Source of the DNA: Gordius albopunctatus
Taxonomy: Eukaryota
Assembly: GCA_964276515.1 (NCBI GenBank)
Contig: OZ193909.1
Location: forward strand, 16,244,001-16,308,000
Direction: 5' to 3'
Length of the DNA: 64,000 nt
Shown: one piece after another, positions 1 through 37,849 of the stretch
Position numbering within the stretch: the first letter of the stretch is position 1
How the letters are laid out: every line of letters begins with the position of its first letter
Notes under the pieces: generated by a model
What the model was told of the DNA's origin: nothing
Databases searched by the model: none
What the model saw: the letters and a program-made list of their open reading frames with translations, nothing else
Made by a program: the position numbers and the translations under genes

Positions 1-281
1 CAAAAGTGATTGATAATCATAATTGTTGCAATTACAGCATACCATATAAATTAATATTAATTGTACTAGTTGTTTTCTTTACCAAAAGGTTAACACGAAT
101 AATTTGTGATGAGTTATACGTTAAGATTGAATGATTATTATATCCCTAAATTCCAATCGCCAAGGAAAAAGTAGTCGATTTAGATCAAATGAAAATAACA
201 TTTGGCTTAAAAAATTTTAATTGCTATGTATTTGATAAATGGAAGCAAAGACTTTCTAATCTATATATATAAAGTAAAGTC

Positions 282-573
282 TATGTATGTATGTATGTAT
301 GTATGTATGTATGTATGTATGTATGTATGTATGTATGTATGTATGTATGTATGTATGTATGTATGTATGTATGTATGTATGTATGTATGTATGTATGTAT
401 GTATGTATGTATGTATGTATGTATGTATGTATGTATGTATGTATGTATGTATGTATGTATGTATGTATGTATGTATGTATGTATGTATGTATGTATGTAT
501 GTATGTATGTATGTATGTATGTATGTATGTATGTATGTATGTATGTATGTATGTATGTATGTATGTATGTATG
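282..573 (+). repeat. (TATG)n microsatellite, about 73 perfect units, directly after a Helitron 5' end
   Basis: Uninterrupted TATG array. It follows TCTATATATATAAAGTAAAGTC (260-281), the same terminus seen inverted at 1374 and 17300. The MYVC/HTYI ORFs are artefacts of this repeat. Confidence 0.98.
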
Positions 574-575
574 TA

Positions 576-1374
576 GTAGCTGTGCCCGGCCAAGCGTTGC
601 TTTGGCTCAGTCCTTAAGTGGTTAAATAAGTATAACCTATTAATAAGACTACTTATCTAAAATGGGGTCATCATATATGAAATAATAATTCAAATAAATA
701 AAATATCCATAATATTTATTTAGAGCACGAATTTTATCAGGTCATGGATTTTATGAACCCACTATTTTTAGTATATATATAATATTACAAACCAAATGCG
801 AATTCTGTTTTAGTCATCAAATCCGGCTAAAATTAATTGTTTTTGAAAAAATTGCTGATTAATGCTGTTACTTATTATACAATAATACCATTATTTTATT
901 TTTCTAGTTAGCTGATTTATTTGAAATACAATTTTCTTTAATATAATATAATAATTAATTGAAGGATGGATAATTATTAAAAATATGCTTCTATGATCGA
1001 CCACGTGATAATAATTTAAATATTATGTATTTAATTTAAATAGTTTGTTAAACCCCAATTATTTTGACCGTATACTGTAACATTTTTATTATACTTTTAA
1101 ATATCTAATTCGAGAAAACTTCAGCCTTGTATGTATGACGTCATTATTGTATATGATGCTATAAATAAAACTGGCCGGGAAATGTCCGATAAATGTGCGA
1201 TATTTTTAAAACTAAAAGTTATTTTAAGAATCTGAAAAGGCTATTTTACCTCTGGCCGCCCTGGGAACCTACGGCTAAATTTTCGCGCGAATCGGGCCGG
1301 TAGTTTCAGAATTTAGCCCTTACATACATACATACATACACATAAATACATAGACTTTACTTTATATATATAGA
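576..1374 (-). mobile_element. Non-autonomous Helitron
   Basis: On the minus strand it starts A|TCTATATATATAAAG, carries a short (TATG)n and ends with a GC-rich hairpin plus GCACAGCTA(C). Both termini match the helicase-bearing copy at 15468-17300. Confidence 0.85.
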
Positions 1375-1725
1375 TAAATGGAATCCAAAAATTAGGAAAA
1401 CAACAAAGCATTCAAACAGTTTATTTATTTTAAATTATTAAAGTTATCTTACATTACATAAGATATTTATCAATTTAGAAGATAATTTAGTGAGAGCGTA
1501 GAAATATAATTTATTACACGATAAAAGAACAATGATCCAAAACTTATAAAAGAGTGAGTTTATATAGCGATAGATAAGGATAACATTCAAATGAAAATTG
1601 ATTCTGTGTGTGTATTCTTTCTATTTTCACCTTGTACGTATTACAACCAAATCTTTCCAAGGTAAGTGTAATTTGTTTCCCTACAGATACTCCCCCTCTT
1701 AAAAAAAAATATATATATATACACA

Positions 1726-4700
1726 TTATAATTTATAAGAAAAATTTTGTGGAATAGTAATAGTTCTTCCATATCTAGAAAATCGTTGTTGAACAGGTAA
1801 AGTGTTACTATAATCTTCTTTTCTTTCGATCCATGCTGGTTTAAGCCTATCAAGTGATATGGTTTCCTCTTTATTACCCTTTTCCACTATGAAAAATTTC
1901 TTTCTCCTTTTTAGTACTTTAAAGGGTCCATCATATGGGGGTTGTAAAGATTTTCTGACCGTGTCATTGCGCACAAAAACATAATCTGATGTTTTTAGAT
2001 TGTTAGGGATATATTCCTTCTTATCATGTCTTCTGGTAGGGCAAAATTTTAGATTTTGCATTATTTCTTTAAGTCTAATTACATAACCTGGTTTTGATGA
2101 GTCTATGAACGATTTTTGAAAATATTCCCCTGGTAGCCTTAACGTCGTTCCATAAACCATTTCCGAAGGGGTGTATCCGATATCTTCTTTAATTGTCGAC
2201 CTAATGCTGAGAAGAATTAATGGTAGTGTTTCACTCCATTTTGTCGTATCTTCTTGTGACATGATGGAAGCTTTTAATTGCCTATGAAAGCGTTCAACTA
2301 AACCATTAGAACACGGGTGATAGGCTGTAGTTTTGATATGGTCAAATCCTAATGTGGATGATAATTCTCGAAATAAACAGGATGTAAATTGAGCACCTCT
2401 ATCAGTAGTTATAATCTTTGGGACACCAAAGTTGGCAATCCAATGTTGAATAAATATTCTTGCTAAATTTTCGGCTGATATATCGTTGATTGGTATTGCG
2501 ATTGGCCATCTCGTAAAGCGATCGATGGCTGTAAGAATATGGGTGTAGTGAGATGAAGGTGGCAAAGGGCCTACCACATCCATATGTACGTGACTGAACC
2601 TTTCGTCGGTGTCGTCAAAAGTGCCAGGGGAAGTAATAGTGTGTTTGTTCACTTTAGACTTTTGACATTTTATGCATTCTTTTGTCCAATTCCGAATATC
2701 TTTATTCATCGAGGGCCACACAAAACTGCGAGTAATTAGTCTTTGAGTTGCTCGAATCCCGGGATGTGAAAGAGAGTGAAAGTGATCGAAGAAATCCTTT
2801 CTTAGTTTTGTTGGTATAAGTGGTCGAGGTGAACCTGTCGATATGTCGCAAAGAATGTCTTCTTGACAACCAGGTCTTTTTAATTTTACGAGACGTAAAG
2901 ATTTAGTGTTGAGCAATAACTCAGTATCATTCATTTGGTTCAAGACTATTTGAATCTCATTCGGACAAATAGGTAAAGTTAAAGAATTTATGTCTGATCG
3001 AGATAGTGTGTCCGCTGTAATATTACTATTACCTTTTATAAAGCGAATGTCAGTGCTGAATTGAGAGACATAATCTAAATGTCGGATTTCTCTGGGTGAA
3101 TAACGATCAATTTTTGCCTGGAAAGAATAAATTAAAGGTTTATGATCCGTAAATATAGTAAAATTGCGTCCCTCTAGTATGTGTTTGAAATGTTTAATCG
3201 CCAAAAAAATAGCTAGTAATTCTCGACTAAATGTACTATAGCGTGCTTGAGCTGCTGATAATTTTTGAGAAAAAAAGGCTAATGGTTCTTGTTTGTGATT
3301 GCTTACCTGATGCAAAACTCCCCCAACTGCTATGTTCGAAGCATCTGTGGTTAATGTTAACCAACTGTTTGATTTCAAAAATCCTAAATTGGTTGCTTTA
3401 ATTATACTTTCTTTTAAGAGAATAAATGAATTCATTTCTACCTCCATTAATTTAATATCTTTCTCATCATTGTTTAATAAGTCGGTAAGTGGTTTCGAAA
3501 TTGAAGCACAATTTGGTATAAAACGTCTATAAAAATTCACCATACCTAAAAAACGTTTCAAACTTTTCATGGTTTGAGGAATTGGAAAATCCCTAATTGC
3601 ATCAATTTTGTTTGACAAGGGGCGTATGCCATTTTGATCGACATGATGACCGAGAAAGTTTAATGATTTTACCCCCAAAGAACATTTTGATAGATTTATG
3701 CGAATACCGTATGTTTGTAATCGTTTAAAAACGGTTGAGAGGTGTAATTTGTGTTCATGTTCTGTGGAACTGGCGATAAGTATATCATCGATGTAAGCAT
3801 ACACAAAATCTAAACCATTAAAAATTTCATCTATTAGGCGCTGAAATGTTTGTGCTGCGTTCCGCACTCCGAACGGCATTCTTACAAATTCAAACAGTCC
3901 AAAAGGTGTTGTGATTGCGGTCTTAGGGATGTCCTCTGGTGCCATCGGAATTTGATGGTAAGCTTTTACTAAATCCAACTTTGAAAAAATGCATTTACCT
4001 GTTAGATTTAAAGCGAAATCATGTAGATGTGGAATGGGGTATCTATCAGGTTTTGTTGCGTAATTAAGCATTCTAAAATCTCCACATGGACGCCATGTCC
4101 CTGGGGTCTCTTTTGGTACCATATGTAAGGGGGATGACCATTTACTATGTGAGGGTTTTATTATGCCTAATCTACTCATCTCTTCAAATTCTTTTTTTGC
4201 TATTTTAAATTTTTCGGGATTTAAACGTCGTGGAGAACAATGTATCGCGGGTCCTTTCGTTATTATATGGTGTTGGGTATTATGTTTCACTTTGTCATTA
4301 AAATCTGGTGGCTTTGTAATATCAGGAAATTGTTTTAATATAGAGTAAAAATCATTATCCTGTGGAATTGGACTGTTTATAGATGACATTGAGGAATTGG
4401 TTATATTCGATAATTTTAGAGAATAATTTTGTGGATTAATTATGCGTTTATTTTTAACATCAATTATTAAACCAAAGTGTGATATAAAATCTGAACCTAA
4501 TATCGGTGAATGAACGTCTGCGATCAAAAAAGTCCAGTTAAATTCTCTTTTTAAACCTATATCTAATTTTAACGATATTTGTCCGTAAGTATTTATATTG
4601 CTCGAATTAGCTGCTTTTAAACATAATTTATTTAATGTTACTTTAGTTTTTGTTGTCGGTGGAATTACACTAATTTGGGCTCCCGTGTCAATCAGATAAC

Positions 4701-4827
4701 GTAAACCTGATATTTTGTCAAAAACATAGAAAAGGCGATTATGGTTGATATGGCCGAATCCAGCTATCGCCTTTACTGGTAGGCCTGCCTGTTTAACCCT
4801 TTTCCAAAATAACATGGTTCGACACAC
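1726..4827 (-). CDS. pol: Gypsy Pol polyprotein (protease-RT-RNase H-integrase)
   Basis: LIDTGA protease motif, RT YIDD, RNase H LTTDAS, integrase HHCC/DDE core and GPY/F-type PPYDGPF. It overlaps gag in the -1 frame. Confidence 0.97.
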
Positions 4828-5534
4828 TTCCTGGCGTTTGATCCCCAGGTGTCATGATACCAGCACAATGGTCTGTTGTTTGAAATCCCAGAAGAGTGAT
4901 AAGGGGTCTGGGGTTGACCTATCTTTTCTAATGTCCTATTTAGAGCAGATAAAACCTCTGTTAGTTCTTTAGAGTATGCATCAGTGGAGTGTTTTTTTTG
5001 GTTATGAATGTTATTAACATAATTAGTTGTTTTTTTTGACAGCACGATGCGGTCGGCTGTTTCAGCCAATTTCTCCAGTGTAGTATCTTCATTAAACGAG
5101 ACCAATATGGGAATGAGTTCACCAGGCAATTTGTTGAGCCAGAGTTCCTTTAGAATCTTTTGGTCAAGAACGTATGTTCCCACTAAACTCTTCATGTATC
5201 GTAAAAGCTGCGATGGGGATCTATCCCCTAAATCCACTGCTTTTAAAAATTCCATCAATCTTGATTCATCTGATTCGCCAACCCTCTTGATAAGTGCTTG
5301 TTTGAGTTTCTGAAATGGTTGATCAGTTGGAATATTAATGATTAAATCCTCCACCTCTTCAGCGATTTCGGGTGGTAACGTTTCAAGAATATAACCAAAT
5401 TTTGATTTTTCGGAGGTAATTCTTCTTGCCTGGAATACGGCCTCTGCCTGGGCCAACCAAATTCTGACATTTCTGCGATAAAATGTGGGTATCTTCAGCT
5501 GTATAGTTGCTTCAATCTCTTGTTTATTTTCCAT
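4773..5534 (-). CDS. gag: Gypsy Gag
   Basis: ATG at 5534 (MENKQEIE...). N-terminal P.F......WLAQAEAVF motif and C-terminal CWYH...C...C knuckle typical of this Gypsy group. The longer ORF-track start lies inside the LTR. Confidence 0.9.
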
Positions 5535-5615
5535 TTTAATGAATAATATTTGGAAAAAAAAAATTGTTTGCGAACGATAACTAATTAATCTCTGAGATTG
5601 TTGAGGGGAAAAAAG

Positions 5616-5628
5616 GTCGGGGTCACCA
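5616..5628 (-). promoter_or_regulatory. Primer-binding site complementary to the tRNA-Trp 3' end
   Basis: TGGTGACCCCGAC 2 nt downstream of the 5' LTR. Eukaryotic tRNA-Trp ends ...GUCGGGGUCACCA (established knowledge). Confidence 0.85.
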
Positions 5629-5937
5629 TTTTTAGTGAGAGCGTAGAAATATAATTTATTACACGATAAAAGAACAATGATCCAAAACTTATAAAAGAGT
5701 GAGTTTATATAGCGATAGATAAGGATAACATTCAAATGAAAATTGATTCTGTGTGTGTATTCTTTCTATTTTCACCTTGTACGTATTACAACCAAATCTT
5801 TCCAAGGTAAGTGTAATTTGTTTCCCTACAATAATAACAACCCCTTTCAGGAGAAATAGCTGAGAAAATACACATAGAAAATGAAACATCCACTCTTCCT
5901 ACCATGAAGGGCTTAATAGTATCAGAGGGCCCTCTCT

Positions 5938-6377
5938 CTGAAAAGGGTTGTTATTATCTTCTAAATTATATCATTAACATGCAATTTATTTACTAATTTC
6001 TAATATAATAAAACAAAATAATTATTACTACCATAATTATCGGGGTTATTTCATAGCCACCTTAAGAATGGATTAAATCTAATTTGTGCATTTTATATAC
6101 CTATCTCGCTTAGTGTGTGACTAGAGGATTAACTATGGCATACTGATGAGCTCTAATAAGAGCGAAAACGTTATATGTCTGTTATCATTTTCGAGTCACA
6201 TACTAAAAAAGATAGGGATATACATAGTTCAAATTAGTCTCTAATTAAAATTGCCCATAGATGGCGCTAATTAGAGTATTCTTTTAATTTAATTGCGGGC
6301 ACTCCTGAAAGGGGTTGTTATTATCTTCTAAATTATATCATTAACCTGCAATTTATTTACTAATTTCTAATATAATA
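5938..6377 (+). mobile_element. Hammerhead-containing 367-bp unit with ~73-bp terminal direct repeat (retrozyme / Penelope pLTR-like)
   Basis: 5938-6010 is nearly identical to 6305-6377. An inverted partial copy lies at 1472-1485 plus 5831-5852, split by the Gypsy insertion. A diverged copy of the 3' half lies at about 15170-15330. Confidence 0.7.
6137..6179 (+). ncRNA. Type I hammerhead ribozyme (minimal helix III form)
   Basis: Helix I GGCAUA/UAUGUC; CUGAUGA (6143-6149); helix II GCUCU-AAUA-AGAGC; GAA; palindromic helix III AACGUU; cleavage triplet UUA with predicted cut after 6173. Confidence 0.9.
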
Positions 6378-7540
6378 TTTATAAATGTTTAATATTTGCA
6401 AGATAATTTTTAAGTTGATATCTAATATAATAGCACTTAATTGAATTGTCCATATGACAGTCAGGTCGAATTTGGGAAAGCCAAAAGCGATTTTGCGGGC
6501 CTCTCTAAATAACGGCTTTTAATTTTTACTAAAAATTTCAACACACATTTATAAAATATGATGCTACTAAGCCTTTTGTTTATACACCTTAATTCCTGTC
6601 CAATTAAAAATAAAAGCTTAAAAACAGCTATTTAAAATAATTAAATGTCATTTGAGACACTGTGTGTTTAGAGGTAATATAAAATTGTGATGTATTAGTA
6701 TTTTCGGTTATTCCTTTAAAAACGACAGGTTTTAACATTAAATGATGAAAAAGATAGAGAAATTTTAAAATTCAACTCGACAATACCCTGCATTAATGAT
6801 AATCTTTAATTTTGATTTAGCCAAAAAGCAGCCATTCACTGCCATGCTATTCATATCTATAAATAAATTAATCTGATATAATTTTTCATTAAACTAGTTT
6901 TTGTTAACTTATAGTAAATTAAAAAATTTAATGTGGCCCAGAATCGATAATGTATCTTTTTTAATATTTCTTATTTAATTAAATAACTTAATTATTTATA
7001 AATAAATATCTTTGTCTAATTTAATAGTGATGGCATTTGATTTAAAATAGAAAATGGCTAGATAATTACACCATAGATAACTCTTTTTAACAAATAAGTA
7101 ATTAATATGATTGGCCACATTAAAATATAATGAAATGTATTTGTCATTAAAATTTAAATCGATAAATTCATACTTTCCCACTTAATTTTTTAGTTTTATG
7201 TAATTAAATTTTAAATTAATAGGGAACCAACAAAATAATAGGTAGGCAAGAATTTTTATGATAATTGTATTATCCATATTATAATTTTCCAGTTGTTAAC
7301 CGATTTCGGAGAAAAATAGCAATTATTAAAACCTAAATTGCATAAACAGCAGGAATTTTTTAATCATTTTTTTAAGATACGTCTAATAAACGTGGTATAT
7401 CAATTATTCGCTTTAAAGGAAATTTATAATATCCATGCATTTTAAATGTGTTTTAATTTTAACCCTTTTCACTCAGATTTAAACACAAAACGGTAATTAG
7501 TATGAAATATCTTTTAATATAAAAGCAAGTTTCCATTACA

Positions 7541-10211: not shown

Positions 10212-11500
10212 TTAATTATTATGATATATTGACCAACAATGTATGTGAAGGCCTACCTTACAATATACACATAAAAATCTAGTAGCTTTATGACAGACGA
10301 CACAACGCCTCTGAGTACACGATTCCTTTTGATGTAAAGTTATATTATTCTTAAAATTAGTTAATTTAGGGTTTAAAATCCGTTTGCGCGGTTGTCCGTA
10401 ATTTTTAAAATAATTTTGCACTATCTCTCTTTTGAAATTACATAATGTAATTTTTTCCCTATTTTTGCAATATAGATGCCATGCATTTTGGCATGCAGCA
10501 TCTAGCCCAAATGCAAATATTGGAAAATACCATTTTCTGCAGCGAAACGATACTCTAGTTGCATCCATATTTTGGTCAAAGCTGTCGACACCGCCCATAA
10601 AACAATTATACATTTTGATCATATGAGGACATTGAATTAAATTTTTTTTCTATTTATTTCGCTTTAGTGATTCTTCCAATAGAGGTGATAGGCTTAACCC
10701 CGTGACAATTTGACAACATTGTGCCAATATTATTATCATTCGATCGGACGGCCATCAAATAGGTGTTTTTTTATAAAAACCCTCGTTCTTTTACATTGAT
10801 GATCGGGCATTTTAAACGATTGACCGGCACCGTTCCTGTGCCCCCAATATTTATCTTTGAAAGACATCTCATTAAATTGTGTCTCGTAAAAAATTATAGA
10901 AATATCAATATTGTATGGACAAAATTCTGGTAGTAGTTGATTTACTATGTCTAATATTACCGCTCCTCCTAAACTTATTTCGTTTTTTCGATTTACGGAA
11001 AATTTAGCCCCCTGGTAAGGTTATAATGTGACAAGGTAGCCATTTTTTGTTGCAGCACACTACATGTTATAGCCGAAATGAAAAGGCTTGCTTTTTATAA
11101 ATTGATTTGCATTGTGGTGCCCTAAATAAGGAACCATTCACTCATCCATGGATATGTGAGAAGAGCTGCGTTGTTTAAAGTTGCTTGAGCTTTTTATTTA
11201 AAAGATCCATATAATCTCGAACTTTGAAAAAAGTGTCAACCCTTACCAATTTGCTGTTTATCGGCCAAATGTATATATTTAATTATTTCTTGGAAGCCAT
11301 TCTACGCATTTCATTAGATAACATTTGGTTAAAACAGTCAACTCTGAGCTCCCAAAACATTTTAATATTTTTAGGAAACAAGTAGCCCGTTATAAAAAGA
11401 ATTGAGATATAGGCTTTAAATTGATGAACAGTTAAATTTAGGTTGTAGTTATGCTGAGAAGCATATAAATTACCCATATTCACCACATACAAAAAAAAGA
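10212..11500 (-). pseudogene. piggyBac (PGBD-like) transposase, frameshifted
   Basis: YN..MGGVD.FDQ and RKWY motifs, C-terminal Cys-rich domain CVVC...C..C...LH..CW..YH. Upstream fragments (SMDE, KPFHFG) carry stops and frameshifts. Confidence 0.88.
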
Positions 11501-14629: not shown

Positions 14630-15170
14630 ACCTCGGTAAATAACGTATCCCCGGAGACACTTCGCACTCCTATTACCTCTCTACAGTTCCGCCCTTTTCA
14701 CAGACAAAATCCTTAAGGAATGATGGCGGTTTCCCACTACGCTGTGGGTATCTAACCGTGCTTGGCTTTTATTGTGCCTTATACCCATTTGTTTGGATCC
14801 AAAAACATGCGTACCCAAACCAAGTCTCCTGCGTTGAACATTCGCGGGTTCCCGGTCTCTACCCATTGTTGTGGTACGGTTTCCCTCAATACCTCCCATT
14901 CGGTTCGCATACGCCTTTTTAGCATCACCTCTGCTGGGCTTTTATTGGTTGTGGGGTTTTTTGTGGATCTGTAGTTTTCCAAAAAATCTACTTAACCTTA
15001 CTTTCGACTCGTTCCTAATAATGGCTTCTTTAATTAATCGTACATACCTTTCTGTCAGACCGTTCGACGCAGGATAGTAAGAGTCTGTCCATCGCTGATT
15101 AATGCCTCTCATCTTGCAAAAATTCTGTAATTCCTGCCCTTTGAATTGTGGACCGTTATCTGATATTAAA
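14630..15170 (-). mobile_element. Gypsy integrase remnant with PPT and start of LTR
   Basis: SDNGPQF and YYPASNGLTER integrase motifs; PPT-like GAAAAGGGCGGAAC then TGTAGAG. Same family as 23430-24740. Confidence 0.8.
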
Positions 15171-15467
15171 AGATAGGGATATATAGTCAAATTATAATTA
15201 AAATTGCCTATAGATGGCGCTAATTAGAAGATAATTTTAATTTAATAGCGGCATTCCTCGAAGGGGTTATTATTATCTTTTGATTGTTATCGAAAACCCG
15301 CAATTTATGAACTAATTTCTAATAGAATAATGTTTTATTAAAAGGAACTATTTATGAAACAAGGAAGTAACTTTAGTTTAATGAGAAGTGATTATTAAAT
15401 AAAGTAAATCCCAGCCAAAGGCTTATTAGATTTAACAAATAAATTTGCATAGCATTTTTATAAGTAA

Positions 15468-17300
15468 CTAGCTGTGCCCAACCAAGCGTTGCTTTGGCTC
15501 AGTCCTTAAATCTAAAATGGTGTCATATATGGAATAATTTAACGGCCCGTTAGCGGGGAAGGCGAGGAGGTAAAACGTGGCCTAGGATAGGGAAAGTTTT
15601 TCCCGGAGGGCCGTTTGAGTGGAAGCTGGGTAAAAATATTTTAGTGGATTGTAGAGATAAATACTGATGGTAGTTTATAATACGGGACTATAGGAATATG
15701 CATTTCGATGTAGTAAAAAATATAACACGAAAGGTACCTGGTGATGACGGGTGTAAAACGAAGGAGCGGTTCCTTGGTTTAAGTGGAAATATCGCATCAA
15801 ATGCCATCGTCGGATCATTGCAAGGCCATAGGATATACAACATTTTTGGTTTTACTCTCCGGCGCGAAAATAAATAGGTTTCTTGGTATGCCTACACGGG
15901 AGCATGCTACATATAGTTGGCCACGCGAAAAGCATGAATTTTCTAGATTTAAGCCAACAGTCAATGATTGTCCCTGGGCTTTATTGATTGTCATTGCGAA
16001 TTCTAGGCGTACAGGAAACTGTACACGCTAGAATTTAAAGGGCACATCGGTGGGGATCATGGGGATGCGTGGGTTCATCATGTCCTCGCCTTTATACGTT
16101 CCGCAGACTATAGTAGCCGCAATGACGTTTACCGCAGTTGTTTTACGGCAAGTCTGGTGCCATTACACAACCTCGGGGGATGTAAGTTACGCAGGAGTAT
16201 TATAGGGGCAACCAGGTTTCAAGGTTAATTTATGTGGTGGGAGACCCGAAGGTGTTGACGAATTCAAAAATTCAACTGGATAATTTACAATTTGATCGGT
16301 TTCTATAACCGTATCAATAGAGCTGTAAGTAAAAGGATCACCTGGAATGTGCACTTGAATACAATCATTTATACGGGTGACGGCTGCATTTGTTGGCGCT
16401 AATATTGCGCGTTCCCGGAGCCATGTGTGATTGGTGTAGTGCGTTGCAATGTGGGGGAACACTATAGTTTCAACCGCCTCAGGCGATGGCAATAGGTGAC
16501 AAAAGGTTGTTGGAAAGGTGCTTTCCCTTGGAGACGGGGTAAATGGAAAGGTACCGTTCCCCAAAGCTAGGAGTTGTTGTGCAAATGGGGACGTATCCGT
16601 GAGTAAATGCACGCGCATGTTCGTAGTAAGCGTGAGGATCGTAAACTTCCACCAAAGATGTGACGCCTTCAGGCAGGTATTCAGCTCATCAGCCGGTGTT
16701 GCTCTTGGGATAACAGGTAATGTTTGTCGAAAATCACCGGCTAGCAACCTAAGCTAAAAATATAAATAAATAAATTTAAAAAAGGTGTGGGAAGGGAAAT
16801 GCCCATATTTTGGCAACTAATAGACCTACGGGTAAAATTTGGATGCTTACTTAAATAACAACATAACATAATTTCTTTAATAGTTTCCCTTTAAATTATC
16901 ACACAAAATTTCACAATATAAATAAGAAATAAATAAGTATGAAACATCAATCTTACCATAATTTGAAATAGGCAATGATATAAGATACATTATTCTAGAA
17001 AAAGAACAACAATAATGAACCTGGCCGGGAAATTTCCGATATTTTTAAAACGAAAAGGTATTCAAATTTTCAAAGAACACGATGAGGTTGCGTTTGATTG
17101 ACATTTTAATATACGTCAAAACGTATAAAACAAAATATCTCGAAAAACTAAAAGGAATTTTAGGAATCTGAAAAAGCTATTTTACCTCTGGCCGCCCTGG
17201 AAACCTACGGGTAAAGTTTCGCGCGAATCGGGACGGTCGTTTCATAATTTAGCCCTTACATACATATATATATATATACACTTTACTTTATATATATAGA
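15468..17300 (-). mobile_element. Internally deleted Helitron retaining the C-terminal PIF1-like helicase
   Basis: A|TC start at 17300; hairpin plus CTAG|T end at 15468. Helicase motifs AGDFRQTLPVIP, LTTNMRV, ERAILAPTN, GLPPHKL, and downstream FAMTINKAQGQS and GQLYVACSRV. Confidence 0.93.
15810..16750 (-). pseudogene. Helitron RepHel helicase fragment (frameshifted)
   Basis: ORF 16187-16747 plus out-of-frame continuation to KNVVYPMALQ. Confidence 0.9.
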
Positions 17301-17681
17301 TAAAATAAGATCTTAGAGTTACTTCCATTTTCAATTTTTTTAAATGGATTCCATATTTAAAAGCCAACGTAAAGTAATGACTTTTGAATTAAAAGGTGGC
17401 AATCAATTTATCATCCTCTCCCGAAGCATTAAATACGGAAATTTTATATTTATTTGAGACGTTTAGTATACTAAAATATCCTTTTCACTTATTTTCGCAC
17501 ACTAATCATGAGAAAGTTTTTATAACTTTTCCACACCATCAATATATCCCTTATAGTTTCCTACGAAACATGAAACACATTTTACGAAACAATAATATAA
17601 ACAATAATAATAAGTCAGAAACCCAACAGATCTTTATTAAATATTATACAGAATAATTACCAATCACCTCCTACTACTAAA

Positions 17682-19480: not shown

Positions 19481-20666
19481 TAGAGGTCTGCATGGACCGA
19501 AATTTTAGGTTCAGGCCCGGCCCATACCCGCACAAATATTATCTTTTTAGCCCGCACCCGGCCCGCAAAAAAATCTCAAAATTGCGCCGCATCCGGCCCT
19601 CACGAGCAAAAACAAGTCTACGTTGTTGCAAAATTATTTCTTTGTATAGTAACTATTTTGTATTGTTCAAAAAATAATTTAGCTATAGCATATAAAATCG
19701 GTTTTAATTAAAAATTATAATTTAATATTGTCATTTAAAAATAATAGACTATCTATTCTATCAGGCAATAATTTCGTTCTTCTCTGTACTATAAGGCGAC
19801 TTGCTTTACTGAATGTGCGTTCACTCGTAGCATTGTTGGCTGGAATTGACAAAAACTGACTAGCTAATTTTGTTAAGTTTGGTAGCATAAGTTGGTGTTC
19901 TTTCCACCATAAAATTACATCTAGCTTAGCATCTTTAGGTTTTTTCCCCGTTTCATCATCGTCCCAAATAGAAAATATAAATTGCTTAGTGTTGCACACC
20001 TGAGCTGGATCACTTTTAGTTGAACGACTTATGCAAGAAGATCTGTTCAAGAGCCACGATCTTCTTAAATCATCTAATTCTGTTACCGTAGTTTTTTTAG
20101 AAGCTTTTTCCATATTCGGGTAGCTAACGAGCGAAACTAAGAAACAAGAAAATAAAGGTTAATATTTTACGATAAATATCGATATTTGACTTTGAAATTA
20201 GCATAGTTTGGGCTCTTGACTTCAATTTGTAGATCTTTAAGTCAACAGGATCACCATTATACGTAGGAGATGGAAACAAATTTGCGATGCTTTTTATGAT
20301 GTATAAAAGGGTAACATTTTATAGAGTGTTGGTGTCTTATGCGCTTCTAACTCGATACTTGCTCTTTCATAAGGTGAAAGCATATTAATTAATAGCATGA
20401 TATGTTTTATGGAAATGTCTTCAAGTTTTCCAATAAATCTTTGCCAGATAAAAAACTGATTATTTTATCATTTTTAACATAATGATTTCCACCAGATCGT
20501 TGTTCGGAAAATTAATTTTTTTTTTTGTAAAAAAGCTAATAAGTGAATTTTTTTGTTTCTATATTAGAATTATAGTATAAAGTAAAATACTTTTTAAAGC
20601 CCAACCCCAGGCCTCAATTTTTTTATTGCTCTTTTTTAGGCCCGGCCCGGCCCATGCAGACCTCTA
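19481..20666 (-). mobile_element. Internally deleted hAT transposon
   Basis: TIR TAGAGGTCTGCATGG/CCATGCAGACCTCTA, perfect 8-bp TSD TACACAAT, hAT dimerisation-domain ORF 19715-20113 (WWK...LPNL..LA..FLSIPA....ERTFS). Confidence 0.93.
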
Positions 20667-20989
20667 TACACAATACATAAAAATTAAAAATGTAAAAACT
20701 GTGGTAAAAGTTTGTTTAATAATATAGCGCCATCTATATTTTGTATAATATAAATTTATTGAAGTTCGTTCAAATTTATAAGCTAGTGAGGAATGACTGT
20801 TATAGCGCAAAATGACATGGTTGTAATACGAATCATGTACAACATCCAGAAATTTTACCCTCCAAAAAAGTTTGAAAAATTAGACAATATATCTAAAGCA
20901 TTAAATTAATATTTAAAAATATATGTATTTTGTAAAAATTTCATCTTTATTAAAGCACTAAATAAGATAGTATATTATTTAGCTATATA

Positions 20990-22310: not shown

Positions 22311-22810
22311 ACCTATTTTATTATATAAAATATTCTTGATTTTCTATACCATATAAATATTTTATTTTTGCAAAGTATGTCCTAGTTCTTCTAATTAAGA
22401 ATTAATATAAGAAATAAATTGAATAAAAATTTTTTGGTCAATAACAGTCAATTTACCCTCCTTAAAAGTTTATATATTTGAACTAACGCTAATAAATTAA
22501 TATTATACATAATATAGATGGTGCTATATTTATTAAACAAACATGATATTTATTTTAGAATGCTGTTTTTTATATCTACCCAATTCAATATTTTTTTATT
22601 TACGTTTTCAAGATTATTTAATTTACAAAAATTACGATTTTCTATATGATTACCACTATACAATGTGCCACTTAAGATGACGGAAAAAAGGTACACATTT
22701 TGTGCATTGATAATGAGTCTATCTAGTCTATGTATATAACCCAACTTACCTGCAAGATGCGTTTTTTAATAAGTTCAAGATGCCGGTAAAACAGGCATCA
22801 CCTTTTTCAT

Positions 22811-29754: not shown

Positions 29755-32700
29755 CAATATTTTATTTGCACATTCTTTATTCGAAACAAAAATACACCAT
29801 CATTTTATCATTAATTTTTGCTAAATTAACTATATTATATTCAACTTATTCGTCATTTCCTAATAAACCATTTTCTATTACATATTTTTAAATGGTTCCG
29901 ATATAGAGAAATTTTAAGCAGATAGACGCGATGGCATTTCTAATAATATTTGGTGAAGAATTTTTAATATTTGATATGTATTACTTTTTACTCTATAAAC
30001 TTAAATTTATAATCGGGGCAGAAATGAAACCCAATTTTTTTATTTTAATAGTCAAAAATTAATTTGGATCCGTAAAACGACCTTGCTGCAATTACAGAAG
30101 GATCATTAATTTGTAAGCTTAGGTAAAGAATATTGGTAACAAGGTTTATGAACAATTGACCTATCAGCTAACCTATAGGAACGTGTGACCAGCGAATCCA
30201 CAATGGACCCCATCTAACGATAAATATATGGATAATTATGAGTGAAATAAATTTATAAATGTTATTTTAATCTTGAAGATGGCTTGGGGTGCTTTATTTG
30301 ATATGGCTTAAAAAGCAAAATATTACTAATGCACGATAGTGGAGTATTTTTAAACCCTTTACGATCGAGGGTGGAGTCGCTTTATGGAGGAGACATTTTC
30401 TTCTTCTTTCTATGACTGCTTGTCACCTAGGATGGTGGTCAGTCCTTTCAGCATTCGTTTCCATTTTTTTCTATTTTTACATAGATCTTTCTTTATCTTG
30501 TGGACTTTCATATCATGTCGTATTTTATGAATCCAGGTTAGCTTGGGTCTTCCTCTTCTTCGTTTTCCTGCGAAATTTATCATCTCGATTTTCTTTCCTA
30601 CGTAGCTATCGTCCCTTCTTTTTACATGGCCATACCATCTTAGTCTATTTGTTAGGAGCTTTGTCGCAATTGATGTAGTACCCAAAATTCTTCTTATTTC
30701 TTCATTTCGCCTATGGTCCATTTTGCTTACTCCTAGCACCCATCTTAGCATTCTCATCTCCATGGCTGCAAGACGTTGCTCTTCTCTTTTACGTATAGCC
30801 CATGATTCCGAGATATACAGGACTGTTGGCTGTATGATGGATTTATACAATGCGCCTTTTAGTTTTCTCGGGATGTTTTTGTCCCACAGAACACCTGTCA
30901 GGTCCCTCCACTTGAGCCATCCGGAATTTATCCTTGCTTGGATTTCTTTATCCATTCCACCATCCGATTGAAGTGTTGATCCTAAATATTTGAAGAAATC
31001 CGCGCTTGTAAGTTGCCAATCGCCTAAACTAAGGGATGCACTTTGCTGGTTTTCATCCGATTTAAACTTTGTCTTCATGTATTCTGTTTTCTTTCTATTT
31101 ACCCTGAGACCACTTTCTTCTTTGCATTTACCCATCTATTTACAGTGTTAGCCAATTCTTGTTCGCTTTTGGCACAGAGGATTATATCGTCTGCAAAGAT
31201 CATTGCCCAAGGAGCTTCCTCGCCCAAATCCTTGGTAATATTATCCATTATCATTATGAATAGGAAGGGACCAAGAGCTGAACCTTGATGAACTCCAATG
31301 TTGATGGCAAAGCCTTTTGTAGTCCCCACCGTTGTTCTAACGTACGTTCTATTTCCCTCGTACATATCTTTTATTGCTCTGACGTATACTTGTGGCACAT
31401 TGTTTTCTTCAAGACATTTCCAAACTAAATTACGAGGAACTTTATCAAAAGCTTTTTCAAGATCGATGAAACACATGTGAAAATCCTCTTCCCTTTCTTT
31501 AAACCGTTCCATTAATCTTCTAACACTGTTTAGGGCGTCTGCTGTAGACCTCTCCGGCATAAATCCGAATTGGTTATCTCGAATTTGAACCAAACTCCGA
31601 AGCCGTTTTTCAATCACTTTCTCCCACACCTTGAAAGTGTGGCTCATAAGCTTTATCCCTCCGTAATTGTTTCAATCCTGAATGTCCCCTTTCATCTTGT
31701 ATATCGGGATCATGTAGCTATGCTATCCCTCCACTCGTTAGGCATTACACCCGTTTTAAAGATATTGTTGAAAAGGTTGGCGAGGAATTGTGCACCAGTA
31801 TTCCCTAACGCTTTGAAGCCTTCTATCGGTATATTGTCGGGTCCAAGAGCTTTTCCTGACTTTAGTTTACTCATAGAAACTTTCACTTCCGTTTTCGTGA
31901 TCCAGTCCGCTGTGTTTAATTCTCCTATTGTATTTTCCTGGTTAGTGTCTTCGACTACAGGCCCTTTTTCAATTGATAAGTCGCTATAATAGTCCTACCA
32001 TCTTTGTAGTATATGGCTGTCGTGTGTTATTATTTCTCCCTTTTGACCCTTAATTAGCCGGCATTCTAGGTAATATTTAGAATTTCGGGCCCTTGACTTT
32101 GCGATTTTGTAGATCAATCTTTCTATTTCCTTTGAGTTTAGTTTTACATTTATATCGTCGTACACCTTGTTTTTAGCTTTGGCTACGAATATTTTAGCCG
32201 ATCTTTTAGCTACTTTGTAAGCTTGCTTATCATTACTATCCTTACTTTTATACCAAACTTTGTACAATCTCTTCTTTTCCCTGATACATTTTTGCACTTC
32301 TCGATTCCACCACCACGTTTCCTCGAGAATTCTTTTAGTGGGCTTGCTTTCACCTAGTATTTGTCGTCCCGCTTTTCGCATTGTGGCAGCTATACCATTC
32401 CATTGATCCTCACATCAAGTATTTCCCCTAAATTCAGCAAGTTTAATTACTTTTTCCTGAAACTGTTGAATATTATCCTTTAGTTTCCTCCATTGTATAG
32501 CAGCGGCTACTCTTTGAACTTTTTGCCATTTAAGGCCCTTTAATATAAAGTCCATCACCAACAGTTTGTGTTGGCAGGCCAATATTTCACTCGGTATTAC
32601 CTTAACATTTTGAACATACTTTAAGTGCGCTCTGTTGACTAGAAAGAAATCTATCTGAGTGGTTTGGCTGCCGCCTTTGTACGTTATAAGATGTCCCTGT

Positions 32701-33194
32701 CTCTTTTTAAAGAAGGTATTTCCTATTGCTAGGTCAAAAGCTTTAGCAATTTCTAGAATTTCCGTACCTCCTTCATTTCTTAGGCCGTAACCCCGACCAC
32801 CGTGATTTCTTTCAAATCCTCCCCTTGATTCGCCCACGTGTCCATTAAGGTCCGCTCCGATAATTATTAGTCCCTCTTTACCGAATTGGGATAGAACATC
32901 TTCAAGCTCCTTCCAAAAACACTCTTTATCGGTCTGAGAGAATCCACTTTGAGGGGCGTATGCTGATATAAAGTTTATCATAGTAGATTTATAACAAAGT
33001 TGTATCGCCATAATTCTGTCATTGATTCTCTTAACGTCGGCGACAGTTTGCTGAAATTCTTCCGATAGCACTATACCGACGCCATTCCGGTGAGTTTCTG
33101 TACCGTAAAAATATAATTTGTATCCGTCCCCTATGTATTTTGCTTTTTGGCCCTTCCATTTGGTCTCTTGTATACACGCGATATCGATTTTTCT

Positions 33195-36100
33195 TTTTTT
33201 TTGTTAAAAAGTTTATTTTCAAGAAACAAAGTTACATTAATAAGCGAAATACAAGAATAAAGACATATTGGTTAAATACAAAGATCTATATCATTCTCTT
33301 CTAAAATGGGCCATGAGTCGGCAAAGGATTTAAAGTTGTATCGTGCAACAAGAATCCCTAGTTGTTTCCTGAGTAAAAAGGACGCAGAAATTTTAGATTT
33401 TGGGGTGCGTTTTCCGATTTCTTTAAAAAACCCATTGCCTGTTTGCCAAAGGAACCGGAGCACGTGGCAACGACAGGGATAAAAATAATGGATGCCAAAA
33501 GGGCAGAATACTTTGTAGTTTTACGCCCTTCTTCTGTAGCGATAGGGTCGTAATTAAAATGGGAAGGTGCAAAAAGGTCAATACAAGTAAAATCCCATTT
33601 GAGGGATAGGCCATTTTGCCAGGGGACTAGAGAAGAGCCGTCAGGGCGCATCCTACCTTTAAGGGAGGGATCGGACGGCTCAAGGATTGAGGGGACTTCG
33701 GCCTTTTTAAGGGCAGCTTGAATTAATAAATTAGCTTTAGTGTGCCTAACGTATTTATATTTGTTTGCTAGGCAGTGTAGAGGGTGCCTAGCATATTCGT
33801 CTACAACGGTAAGGCAGTTTTGACAGTTGAATTCTCTGCTGTAACTAATCCCCAACCTTAAAGCTATGGAATATGATAGCTCAAAGTTTTCAAGCAGCAT
33901 TCCCAAAAGTTTGCTGGGATAGGCTTCAAGCCACTCGTGACCGGAACCGTCAAAAGTGAGGGACCTAAGGTTGTAATGCTGGCTATCATCGCTGCTCGAT
34001 AAGAGGTAATCAACGGAGCGCGATACTAGTCCAGAATCCCAATCCTTTTGTCTCGTACTTTGAGGTTGGATGGTCTCGGGTGTGACATTCAAATTCCAAA
34101 GCTCCAAAGCTTGAGTTAGCAGGGGGTCGGAATCATGTTTTATGAGATTAAAAATTAAGTTTTGGACCGACTTAAAAGAGGAAATAAAAGCGGCTAGCGA
34201 TATGCTGCCGGGAGGGCGAATTCCTAATCCTCCAGATTTGGTTGGGAGGGATGCTTGAATCCAATTGTTAGTATTAAATTTAAAATTTTTAATTGCTATG
34301 CAATTTATGGGCTCGTTTTTGGTTGTCCGTCCGTCCGTCCGTCCGTCCGTCCACCAAGTTATTTACACCAGCTTCCCGACCTGGAGGTTGCGGGTTCGAG
34401 ACCCGGAGAGGACAAAAATTTTTTTTTTTTTAAATTAAATTAATATTTTTTTCTTGTTAATACCATTGATAATATGACTTTTTGACCGTCCGCAGGCTAC
34501 TGACCAATGAAAAAATGACCACTGGCCAGATAAATCGAAATTTTTATATTTTCGTTTTTGAATAGTTTAACATTGATAATTACCCTATGCCCTCCCCTAC
34601 AAAGGCCTATGGCTCTATTTATATGGTTCCCTGTTCCCCTCCAAAGGCTTATGCCTCTATTTAATGTGGGTTTGAATCCCGGCGAACGTTCTAAATTGAT
34701 GGTTCGAGACCTGGAGAGGACAAAAATTTTTATTTTTTTTTAAATTAAATTAATATATTGTTCTTGTTAATACCATTGATAATATGAATTTTTGACCGTC
34801 CGCAGGCTACTGACCAATGAAAAAATGACCACTTGCCAGATAAATCGAAATTTTTAATTTTTCGTTTTTGAATAGTTTAACATGGATAATTACCCTATGC
34901 CCTCCCCTACAAGGGCCTATGGCTCTATTTATATGGTTCCCTGTTCCCCTCCAAAGGCTTATGCCTCTATTTAATGTGGGTTCGAATCCCGGAGAGGGCA
35001 AAATTTTTATTTTTTGAATTAATTTAATATTTTGTTCTTGTTAATACCATTGATAATATGACTTTTTGACCGTCCGCTGGCTACTGACCAATGAAAAAAT
35101 GAACATTGGCCAAATAAATCCTAATTTTTCGTTTTTCCTTTTTGAATAAGTTAACATTGATAATTGAAAAAAATTACCATTGGCCAAATAAATCAAAATT
35201 TTTTGTTCGTTTTTGAATAGGTTAACATTGATAATTACCCTATACTTTTTAATAATTGCTATGCAATTTATCTAGTTTTTGGGTTAGAATCCCGGAGTTT
35301 TTTTTGACTCTTATGATTGTTCTTGTTACTATCAATGATAATAAGACTTTTTGGCCGTCCGCTGGCTGCTGACCAATGAAAAAAATGACCATTGGCCAAA
35401 ATGTGTATCCGAGTTTATTTTTTCGTTTTTTTTGAATATTATGATTGTTCCTGTTCCTACCATTGCTATTATGACTTTTTGGCCGTCCGCTGGCTGCTGA
35501 CCAATGGAATAAAATGACCATTGGCCAAAATGTGATTCGAAAATTTTTTTTTCGTTTTTTTTTACTATTATGAATTTATATCCACTTTTACCGTGTCCTG
35601 GCTGCTGACCAATGGAAAAAAATGACCATTGGCCAAAATGTGAATCGAAATTATTTTTTCCGTTTTTTTTTACTATTATGATTTTTCCTGTTCCTACCAT
35701 TGCTATTATGACTTTTTGGCCGTCCGCTGGCTGCTGACCAATGGAATAAAATAACCATTGGCCAAAATGTGATTCGAAAACTTTTTTTTCGTTTTTTTTG
35801 ACTATTATGAATTTATATCCACTTTTACCGTGTCCTGGCTGCTGACCAATGGAAAAAAATGACCTTTGGCCAAAATGTGATTCGAAAATTTTTTTTTCGT
35901 TTTTTTTTGACTATTATGATTGTTCCTGTTCCTACCATTACTATTATGACTTTTTGGTAATAAAACTCCCGTAGAATTTAACTAACCATAAAGCTTCCCC
36001 TTCGCTCCCTCTCTCCCCCTTTATGATATTTGGCATATACACTTATTTAGTGCTTCCAACCTTCGTTTTGCAATATTCACGTAAGTATTTCCATAAATTG

Positions 36101-36818
36101 CATAGCAAATATGATACATTTATACGGAGTGTAGATGAGTTCCCCCTTCCTTCCCCTCCTACCCTTCCCCCTTCCCTCCCCTTCCCCCTTCCCACGAGGG
36201 CCGAAGACCCGAGTTTTTCTAATAACGTTTTAGAAAGCCTTCGTACGACTTTAAAACGTCTGGTTGTAAAAATGCGCCAGATGAGCGAAAACAATGATTA
36301 ATCTTTGAGATGTTAAAATAGTTTTTGATTACGTAAAATGAGTGATGCGCTGGCAAGCATTTTAAAAGTTCCGTTTTAGATTTTAAAATTTCAAGGTTCT
36401 TATGAAGAAAATTTAAGAGAGATTTTTCACCGCCAATGGGTGATCCCAAAAGAGATATGTTTTCTTTCTCTAAAACTAAAAAAGGTTTAAAAATTGGAAA
36501 GTCAATACTTTTGGACCCCTGAAAGATTTCACATTTTTTCGAGTTTAATGTAAGATTCAGAGTGGGTTTAAAATTGTTGATAATTTGTATAGCTTTACTG
36601 ATCTCCTCCGGGCGGCCACATAGGGTGGCGTCGTCGAGATACCAAACATTTAAATCCAGGATACACTGAGATGATATAGCCTCGACTAAATTATAAATGG
36701 CTAAACAAAACAAAGGAGGGCCTAATGGATCTCCTTGTTGGATGCCTTCGGACGAGTCAATGACGTATTCGCCGAATTGAAGCTTGGTTGTAGAACCATA
36801 GCTTAATAAAATGTATTT
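33195..36818 (-). mobile_element. 5'-truncated CRE-like (RLE-encoding) non-LTR retrotransposon inserted into the RTE
   Basis: RT motifs GIQQGDPLGP and WYLDD, LP...GGLGIR, CCHC knuckle, RH, RPDG...WDFT..D...E..K RLE. Short poly(A) and 7-bp TSD AGAAAAA that restores RTE RRRKIDI. Confidence 0.88.
34291..36213 (+). mobile_element. Helentron/DINE-like composite element inserted in the CRE-like LINE
   Basis: T-run flanks, 5' subTIR, (GTCC)n, ~300-bp and ~122-bp internal tandem repeats, inverted subTIR at about 36091, terminal hairpin at about 36198-36210. Confidence 0.85.
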
Positions 36819-37849
36819 TTTTTCTCCTCCTTATAACGTCTGCCAATTCTCTGCTCTTGCTAGTCATTGTACCAATATTCCATGACCCAAACTTTATCCT
36901 ACGCAAACTAATGTCTTTAACCGCTTCCGTTTGTTGAGAGAGCGGTAGCCTTCGTTTATTTCCCACACATTCCAGGCGAAGAATGCGCGCGTAGCTTAAG
37001 AGTGACGCCCTATGGTTTTCATTCTGCGTCTTTGTTGTAGTATAAATCTTGGTTTAAATGGAATGAGGGAGTATTGATATCCCGGCCTTCCAAGCCTGAC
37101 GGAACTATGTTAGATTTTGACGCTTGACTACCTACTATTCTTTATGATGCAGCCATTTTGGTGAATTAAACTTTTCCTTCGACCACTCGTATTGATAGGC
37201 TTAATCTAGCACTTTAATTTCACAAAATACTCCCTCAAAAAGCCCAGAAATTTTAATCTGACCCTTCACCAAGAACCTTGCCAATAGGGTGACCCCACCA
37301 GTAACAAACATAAAAATTGTGTTTGGCTACCAAAGGTATAGCTTCTTGGATCACGAGAGCACACAAGCTCAACCACCACTACAAGGTATTTCTGGCTCGG
37401 TTGAGATGGAGGAGACATATATATATATATCGCCATTGTAATGCGCGGTAACACTGAATGAAGTGTTCAAATGCAAAAAATTGGTCTGAACGATTACCAT
37501 AAGATAGCCTTAAAGTTAATTGTCGGAAATGGTATACATGGAGTGAACGCAGGCTTTCCGCCGCTGAATTATTCCCATTTAAAGTAGACAGGTTTACAGA
37601 CTTGACTCAATACAAAAAAATTAGAAGGGATGTTGCATGAAATGTCAAGGTAAGGATTTAAAGGTCATGGCTCAAATTGCAAAGCCTTTTGGTGTTATGT
37701 AGTACTATAAAAGAATGATAATATGGCCGAAGCAATGCTTACAAATTTATAGTATTACGGGTACTGATCCGAATTCAGCCCGAATGTTAAACGCTACACA
37801 AATTAAGTTAATCTAAGCCATGGTGCTCAGGCTGTTATTCTCAAGCCTT

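What the first reader, a model, noticed from the sequence alone, without database searches (positions are those of the whole stretch)
6094..6221. Intact minimal hammerhead ribozyme at the apex of a long rod-like hairpin
Seen: all conserved hammerhead core nucleotides in order (CUGAUGA, helix II GCUCU/AGAGC, GAAA, UUA), helix I GGCAUA/UAUGUC, and helix III reduced to the palindrome AACGUU. Helix I extends outward through UAAC/GUUA, UUAGUGUGUGACU/AGUCACAUACUAA (with G-U pairs, which favour the plus strand) and CCUAUCU/AGAUAGG. Established: type I hammerheads with a tiny palindromic helix III are characteristic of Penelope-like elements and metazoan non-LTR retrozymes, and cleave efficiently as dimers. 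Inference: this is a self-cleaving RNA, and the extended helix I could supply tertiary contacts to loop II or form the rod of a circular RNA.
Basis: partly seen in the sequence, partly recalled or inferred. Interest (0 to 1): 0.9.

Follow-up and report, generated by a model that had tools for sequence, protein, structure and literature searches.

The report
Solo hammerhead retrozyme with Penelope footprints
A complete hammerhead ribozyme motif sits in one copy of a 367-base, multi-copy repeat that is likely a known kind of protein-less jumping element (a retrozyme), is predicted to cut its RNA well only when two copies pair up, and likely borrows the enzyme of a Penelope-type retroelement to move.

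Summary
The motif is real: a complete type I hammerhead at 6137-6179 (+), predicted cut at 6173/6174, capping a predicted 40-bp interrupted rod (z -5.8). None of 300 shuffled windows gave one under strict criteria. It has the canonical metazoan geometry (6-bp helix I, 4-bp helix II, 1-bp helix III with palindromic tetraloop), like the axolotl Amex1 ribozyme, not the 'minimal' Penelope type. It lies in a 367-nt non-coding unit (6011-6377) preceded by a 73-nt copy of its own 3' end. Sequencing contigs of two organisms hold over a thousand matching pieces each, with the ribozyme conserved and common variants outside it. A second, 5'-truncated copy ends at the same point, and an inverted fragment (split by a young Gypsy element) ends 40-43 nt earlier, resembling the Penelope 'tail'. 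Best reading: a solo copy of a non-LTR retrozyme, likely Penelope-mobilised. With one ribozyme at this locus it should cut poorly and make no circle. Cleavage, expression, arrays and a partner element were not shown. The scan has noted similar retrozyme or Penelope hammerheads on other DNA. New member of a known kind.

The parts
6137..6179 (+). Type I hammerhead: helix I 6 bp, core, helix II 4 bp + 6-nt loop, helix III 1 bp + palindromic tetraloop; predicted cut between 6173 and 6174
6094..6222 (+). Predicted interrupted rod (40 bp) extending helix I; proximal 3x1 internal loop 6134-6136/6180 is the candidate loop 1
   Evidence: variants
6011..6377 (+). One 367-nt non-coding repeat unit (30% GC); depth of matching contigs falls to the flank level beyond 6377
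5938..6010 (+). 73-nt copy of the unit's own 3' end (71 of 73 identical to 6305-6377): partial tandem / pLTR-like repeat
6335..6377 (+). Last 40-43 nt of the unit, absent from the inverted fragment: candidate Penelope-type 'tail'
   Evidence: inference from PMC8557442 and PMC11167929
5831..5853 (-). Inverted fragment of the unit (equals 6302-6324), right half, next to the Gypsy element
1472..1486 (-). Inverted fragment of the unit (equals 6320-6334), left half; the 5 shared bases are the Gypsy target duplication
5854..5937 (.). 84-nt spacer between inverted and direct repeats; piece of another multi-copy sequence, origin unresolved
15168..15330 (+). Second, 5'-truncated copy (82% to 6207-6377), no ribozyme core, same 3' end within 1 nt
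1487..5830 (-). Bystander: intact Ty3/Gypsy element of the CsRn1 group, identical 199-nt LTRs, 5-bp target duplication, inserted into the inverted fragment

Best explanation
The motif is a complete canonical type I hammerhead inside a dispersed single copy of a 367-nt non-coding repeat, which is likely a non-autonomous non-LTR retrozyme that a Penelope-like element's RT/endonuclease likely copied into this site. Inferred cycle: tandem source loci are transcribed; two ribozymes pair through the AACGUU palindrome and cut after A6173 one unit apart; the 367-nt monomer may be ligated to a circle; a PLE protein nicks AT-rich DNA and starts reverse transcription at one of two internal points (about 6335 or 6377), runs more than once round the unit and leaves a full unit preceded by a 73-nt repeat, plus an inverted short piece. 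This copy has one ribozyme, so it is predicted to cut poorly and to be a dead-end offspring. Shown: motif, repeats, multi-copy nature, core conservation. Inferred: cleavage, dimer dependence, circles, the PLE partner.
For: Geometry matches the published canonical metazoan type (PMC4209133) and the axolotl Amex1 helix III, which cut 6% as monomer and much better as dimer (PMC7229834). Active monomer lies 9.1 kcal/mol above its best fold, the double hammerhead about 3.8 per ribozyme above the best two-strand fold. Unit of 367 nt, 30% GC, no long ORF, within the 150-450 bp, low-GC range of retrozymes. 1794 and 1296 contigs from runs of two organisms lie on 6080-6240. Of 10 positions varying at >=10% in 6113-6202, 1 lies in the 43-nt ribozyme (a loop II base) and 9 in the other 47 nt (Fisher p 0.016, range chosen after seeing the table). 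The 73-nt repeat belongs to the element, since the second copy carries it. One contig in X1 runs from 6329 back to 5999, a head-to-tail junction (table 5c). Both direct copies in the window end within 1 nt of each other; the inverted piece ends 40-43 nt earlier, resembling the partial tandems, inverted 5'-truncated copies and 30-40-bp tails of PLE insertions (PMC8557442) and the two RT start sites of PAc (PMC11167929).
Against: No array with two ribozymes was seen (1 motif in 64 kb; contigs too short). No autonomous PLE was found; none of the 18 window ORFs scanned gave a GIY-YIG domain and no genome is held. The tail rests on 1 inverted fragment and 2 direct ends, is slightly longer than 30-40 bp, and the inverted piece is 84 nt away instead of adjacent. 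Loose ends at 6377 are inconclusive. Rod variants: 4 of 7 common changes at paired sites keep the pair (all G-U/A-U swaps), 3 break it, and no two-sided change could be shown because haplotypes are not displayed (4 of 4 against the reverse change gives p 0.06). Conservation may partly reflect a young family and the 80% laying cut-off. The predicted best fold is inactive in monomer and dimer alike. In Xenopus 8 of 9 retrozyme dimers tested did not cleave.
Confidence: 0.68

Rival explanations
1. It is the left-over pLTR end of an autonomous Penelope-like element: two successive 5'-truncated copies (73 nt and 367 nt) plus an inverted piece, and the family is a mass of truncated PLE ends, not a self-contained retrozyme.
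For: All insertion signatures are those of PLEs themselves. Hammerheads with a small palindromic helix III occur in PLEs of flies, rotifers, shrimps and mosquitoes (PMC4209133). Retrozymes and pLTRs are related (bioRxiv 10.64898/2026.07.22.740005).
Against: Helix sizes are canonical, without the extra base 5' of helix II or the long helix II of PLE ribozymes. Upstream of the unit lies its own 3' end, not an ORF; a head-to-tail joint exists in another contig, and depth stays high on both sides of the 6010/6011 junction (no listed contig bridges it by the tool's 31-letter rule, the best has 30). The spacer's 45-residue reading has no protein match (weak evidence).
Confidence: 0.2
2. It is a retrozyme or satellite unit, but moved by a LINE or spread by DNA-level amplification; the 'tail' and the inverted piece are accidents.
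For: PMC7229834 leaves LINEs or PLEs open as the mobiliser. RT fragments of non-LTR elements lie in the window. The inverted piece is short and not adjacent.
Against: No poly(A) or simple-repeat tail and no target duplication at either direct copy; shared 3' end of two dispersed copies plus terminal redundancy fit PLE-type copying better.
Confidence: 0.08
3. The rod is a DNA-level inverted repeat (MITE-like) or an endogenised viroid/delta-like circular RNA, with the ribozyme as cargo.
For: Arms 6094-6122 and 6194-6222 are near-perfect inverted repeats. Rod-shaped delta-like RNAs of toad and termite carry hammerheads (PMC7936874).
Against: The family extends 80-150 nt beyond both arms and the second copy starts inside the 3' arm. 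The + strand folds much better (-48.6 or -49.4 vs -37.7 kcal/mol) and common variants swap G-U and A-U. Delta-like ribozymes are type III, on both polarities, in 1.5-1.7 kb genomes with an antigen ORF; here there is no minus-strand motif, no ORF, and no exact match in viral contigs.
Confidence: 0.04

Closest known systems
Metazoan non-LTR retrozymes (Cervera and de la Pena 2020, PMC7229834; Li, Clavereau, Pollet bioRxiv 10.64898/2026.07.22.740005)
   Same: Type I hammerhead in a non-coding, low-GC, multi-copy unit of 150-450 bp; dispersed monomers are described as likely offspring of active arrays.
   Different: No array with two ribozymes shown here; this copy fails the 'active' criterion of two consecutive complete ribozymes. 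The ribozyme caps a long self-paired rod and its best predicted fold is inactive, whereas most metazoan retrozyme circles are predicted to leave it free. Expression and circles untested.
Axolotl HHR_Amex1 / newt satellite hammerhead (PMC7229834, PMC6155905)
   Same: Helix III of one base pair capped by a palindromic tetraloop; poor monomer and good dimer cleavage expected; unit size similar (330-350 vs 367).
   Different: Host here is likely an invertebrate, whose retrozyme ribozymes usually have a 2-bp helix III plus tetraloop; no sequence comparison to Amex1 was made.
pLTR hammerheads of Penelope-like elements (PMC4209133; PMC8557442; PAc, PMC11167929)
   Same: Partial tandem, inverted 5'-truncated piece, candidate tail, 3' end downstream of the ribozyme, AT-rich sites, palindromic helix III.
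   Different: No RT/GIY-YIG ORF; canonical rather than minimal helices; 3' ends lie about 160 and 204 nt past the cut versus about 85-92 nt for the main PAc start site; inverted piece not adjacent.
Rfam Hammerhead_HH9 (RF02275)
   Same: Core and helix II/loop II nearly identical to the model consensus over positions 18-55.
   Different: 26.6 bits, below the gathering score 52; distal helix I not matched; helix III shorter.

Membership tests
Type I hammerhead ribozyme | All conserved core nucleotides in order with helices I and II and an A15.1-U16.1 pair, NUH triplet | tested here: met
   triplet UUA
Type I hammerhead ribozyme | Score above an Rfam gathering threshold | tested here: not met
   HH9 26.6 bits vs 52, E 2.8e-4; models are tuned to other subfamilies
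Type I hammerhead ribozyme | Self-cleavage at the predicted site | not testable with these tools
   needs in vitro assay or RNA ends; no RNA holder listed
Canonical metazoan type I hammerhead | Helix I 6 bp, helix II 4 bp, helix III 1-2 bp with 2-4 nt palindromic loop (PMC4209133) | tested here: met
Canonical metazoan type I hammerhead | Conserved loop 1-loop 2 tertiary contacts | tested here: inconclusive
   3x1 internal loop and 6-nt loop II ending in A are present and show no variant >=2% except the first loop II base; the contacts themselves were not compared with a reference
min-HHR of Penelope pLTRs | Helix II of 6-8 bp with an extra base at its 5' end, helix I of 2-5 bp, little or no helix III | tested here: not met
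   helix II 4(-5) bp, no extra base, helix I 6 bp
Non-LTR retrozyme | Non-coding unit of 150-450 bp, GC below 50%, with a type I hammerhead | tested here: met
   367 nt, 30% GC, no long ORF
Non-LTR retrozyme | Multi-copy in the genome | tested here: met
   second copy in window; 1794 and 1296 contigs on 161 nt in two organisms
Non-LTR retrozyme | Tandem units with at least two consecutive complete ribozymes somewhere in the family | tested here: inconclusive
   this locus has 1.2 units and one ribozyme; one head-to-tail joint in one contig; contigs too short to show arrays
Non-LTR retrozyme | No LTR, PBS or PPT of its own | tested here: met
   the LTRs and PBS nearby belong to the Gypsy element, which has its own target duplication
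Non-LTR retrozyme | Expressed as linear and circular monomer RNA | not testable with these tools
   only contig runs, none on record as RNA
Autonomous Penelope-like element | RT plus GIY-YIG ORF between pLTRs | tested here: not met
   no such ORF at the locus
PLE-mobilised insertion | Partial tandem, 5' truncation, inverted copy, 30-40 bp tail | tested here: inconclusive
   all four seen once, but tail is 40-43 nt from one fragment and the inverted piece is 84 nt away
Delta-like or viroid-like circular RNA | Whole-genome rod, ribozymes on both polarities | tested here: not met
   rod is 129 of 367 nt, no minus-strand motif

The most novel reading that the evidence does not exclude
An invertebrate retrozyme family with a canonical, dimer-dependent hammerhead carries the full Penelope insertion footprint (partial tandem, inverted piece, two 3' ends about 40 nt apart). 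That would be direct genomic evidence that a PLE reverse transcriptase mobilises retrozymes from two internal start sites, which published work infers only from co-occurrence and pLTR similarity in vertebrates. The conserved 40-bp rod would act as a lock that keeps solo copies and circles from cutting until a protein or a second unit refolds them.
Probability: 0.3. Interest if true: 0.55.

Novelty: new member of a known kind. Interest (0 to 1): 0.3.

Why it matters
Hammerheads in short repeats are common in animal genomes, so the motif alone is ordinary. The value lies in the footprint around it. Which autonomous element moves animal retrozymes is still open: PMC7229834 names LINEs or PLEs, and the 2026 preprint argues for PLEs from vertebrate data and says it did not examine other organisms. 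A high-copy family shared by two organisms, with a candidate PLE tail and a 367-nt template, would let that be tested by counting insertion ends. It also offers a simple system to ask how a long helix I extension controls a dimer-dependent ribozyme.

Tried and rejected
No whole genome is held, so copies could not be collected. No RNA holder listed among 10 runs of 5 studies: says nothing on expression. Runs X5 and X10 gave 1 contig each and do not cover the core. X2 has a contig identical to the flank and may be the window's own source, so organism A is not independent support. A pattern scan of metagenome contigs gave 2 loci; both are type I hammerheads with full helix III in unrelated, prokaryote- or phage-like DNA and were dropped. 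The family-specific 30-nt pattern found 0 loci in viral contigs and 0 in prokaryote genomes. The idea that 5856-5990 is the end of a PLE endonuclease ORF: 8 candidates, none scored E<=10. The 73-nt repeat as a long target duplication: rejected, the second copy carries it. A link between the ribozyme and the Gypsy element (LTR-retrozyme style): rejected, the Gypsy has its own target duplication and inserted later. A common 5' start at 6128: rejected, the loose-end consensus there stays in register with the window, so it is alignment clipping (by eye). A tRNA-derived SINE: no tRNA found; A/B-box-like words seen by eye are weak and T runs lie inside the unit. Three other TAGATGGCGC-like sites belong to a different repeat without a ribozyme. 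Summed contig depth (about 1.4 million on the core vs 324 in the flank) is not a copy number; overlapping short contigs inflate it, so only 'hundreds to thousands' is inferred. Host taxon was not identified; Gypsy relatives at 49-56% identity are named from flatworms, too distant to name the host. The scan holds no notes on this genome.

Full report
Observation. Numbering: C3-A9 at 6143-6149, helix II 6150-6153/6160-6163, G12-A14 at 6164-6166, A15.1 at 6167, U16.1 at 6172, H17 at A6173, helix I 6137-6142/6174-6179. It is the only such motif on either strand of the window; 0 of 300 shuffled windows give a strict hit and 4 of 300 a relaxed one. Rfam finds nothing at gathering level, but an E-value search of 5800-6600 ranks Hammerhead_HH9 first of 6 matches (26.6 bits, E 2.8e-4, gathering 52). 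The region folds into a rod of 40 predicted pairs (z -5.84; pair table); 0 of 390 windows of similar GC match its energy, while 6 of all 1061 do.

Which kind of hammerhead. PMC4209133 (sections read: abstract, results, discussion) defines the canonical metazoan form as helix I 6 bp, helix II 4 bp and helix III 1-2 bp with a 2-4 nt palindromic loop, and the PLE min-HHR as long helix II, short helix I and an extra base before helix II. This motif is the canonical form. Its helix III, one pair plus an ACGU tetraloop, is the geometry of axolotl HHR_Amex1, which cut 6% in an hour as a monomer and much more as a dimer (PMC7229834, results and discussion read). Nearest-neighbour energies agree in direction: active monomer -39.5 vs best monomer fold -48.6 kcal/mol; double hammerhead -93.7 vs best two-strand fold -101.2. 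The active shape is never the best predicted fold, and the model ignores core and tertiary contacts. Forming the dimer needs helix I to swap partners, which a local 40-bp rod would hinder; this is inference.

The element. 5938-6010 and 6305-6377 match at 71 of 73 bases, 367 nt apart. The unit 6011-6377 is 30% GC with no long ORF. As a circle it folds with z -4.9 (60 shuffles), but four segments outside the rod have z between -1.0 and +0.7, so the signal is the rod alone. A second copy at 15168-15330 is 82% identical to 6207-6377, lacks the ribozyme, and ends within 1 nt of the same point. An intact Gypsy element of the CsRn1 group (1487-5830, minus strand, 199 of 199 LTR bases identical, 5-bp target duplication) sits inside an inverted piece of the unit: 5831-5853 equals 6324-6302 and 1472-1486 equals 6334-6320. 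That piece ends 40-43 nt before the direct copies do. An 84-nt spacer from another multi-copy sequence separates it from the direct repeat. The Gypsy is a later bystander.

Copies elsewhere. No genome is held. Ten runs of 5 studies hold part of the stretch; I laid 6 of the 10. Depth is high from about 5970 to 6376 and drops to the flank level beyond. On 6080-6240, 1794 contigs of X1 (organism A) and 1296 of X4 (organism B) were laid; X5 and X10 gave 1 each. The table lists 23 variants at 20 positions. Ten positions vary at 10% or more in X1 or X4: 1 in the 43-nt ribozyme (6154, first base of loop II) and 9 in the other 47 nt of 6113-6202 (Fisher p 0.016; the range was set after seeing the table). 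Inside the ribozyme the other changes are below 4%, including G12 at about 2% and both central palindrome bases. At paired rod sites 4 of 7 common changes keep the pair (6115, 6126, 6127, 6202; all G-U/A-U swaps that work only on the + strand) and 3 break it (6113, 6114, 6184). Haplotypes are not shown, so no compensatory pair is proven. One X1 contig runs from 6329 back to 5999 (table 5c; 47 joints and 65 variants were not displayed). No listed contig shows two ribozymes.

Mechanism. PLE insertions are 5'-truncated, form partial tandems, often carry an inverted truncated copy and a 30-40 bp tail (PMC8557442, passages). For the anole element PAc the tail equals the distance between two internal RT start sites downstream of the ribozyme, the endonuclease prefers AT-rich DNA, and the ribozyme cut only with protein present (PMC11167929, main text parts 1-2). 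The locus shows each footprint once, without an ORF. The 2026 preprint (parts 1-3 of 5 read) argues that animal retrozymes are non-autonomous PLE derivatives, finds dispersed monomers common, counts only two consecutive ribozyme units as active, and saw cleavage in 1 of 9 dimers. I therefore read this as a solo retrozyme copy laid down by more-than-unit reverse transcription with PLE enzymes (0.68), against a pLTR remnant of an autonomous PLE (0.2), LINE-driven or DNA-level spread (0.08), or a MITE or delta-like rod (0.04; PMC7936874 passages).

Novelty. The ribozyme, its dimer logic and the repeat type are known, and the scan has noted four comparable cases in other genomes (unchecked AI notes that did not change my reading). 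I found no description of PLE tails or inverted pieces on retrozyme insertions: the preprint's main text has no relevant use of 'tail' or 'inverted', and two searches returned only PLE and curation papers. The library lacks most subscription papers, and I opened no supplements; those of PMC4209133, PMC7229834 and the preprint may show such ends or a similar rod. PMC6155905 and PMC1636495 were seen as passages; the latter lists GUC, GUA and AUA triplets but not UUA. That only the proximal loop of helix I contacts loop II, and the label 'CTCF-like', are recalled knowledge. Verdict: new member of a known kind, interest 0.3.

Noticed in passing
window 1487-5830 (-): Intact, apparently very young Ty3/Gypsy element of the CsRn1 group: identical 199-nt LTRs, overlapping gag (330 aa) and pol (1041 aa) frames, best named relative Clonorchis Q9BM81 at 55%. 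Its LTR is also high-copy in organism A.
   Followed up: partly
window 5854-5937: Spacer from another multi-copy sequence, about as deep as the retrozyme in organism B; its last 12 nt loosely resemble the bases before the 3' repeat, so it may be a sister family.
   Followed up: partly
window 6258-6267, 15211-15220, 20727-20736, 22515-22524, 52714-52723: A TAGATGGCGC word (CTCF-site-like, recalled) occurs in both retrozyme copies and in three copies of an unrelated repeat; 5 matches vs 1.4 expected, explained by the repeats.
   Followed up: partly
window 6018-6040: Weak 8-bp A-U hairpin with an A/C-rich loop 7 nt past the point where the family's copies end; recalls the AC-rich stem-loop at the PAc start site, only -2.0 kcal/mol.
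   Followed up: partly
window 6164, 6169, 6170, 6192, 6193: Low-frequency variants cluster at CG dinucleotides, partly as C>T and G>A, a hint of CpG decay in the host.
   Followed up: no
window 259-600, 1208-1378, 15470-17304: Helitron-like non-autonomous pieces with a long (TATG)n tract, and a PIF1-helicase fragment at 16187-16753.
   Followed up: no
window 30410-36830 (-): Broken non-LTR retroelements: an endonuclease-RT element in several frames and further RT fragments; also hAT and DDE transposase pieces at 19715-20158 and 10212-10649.
   Followed up: no
window 34286-35957, 48428-49236, 50966-51373, 61619-63935: A dispersed repeat family with internal 120-130 nt tandem subunits.
   Followed up: no
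L001 1501-1530 (-), L002 1110-1139 (-): Two unrelated type I hammerheads between genes in prokaryote- or phage-like metagenome contigs; the one in L001 starts right after a stop codon.
   Followed up: no
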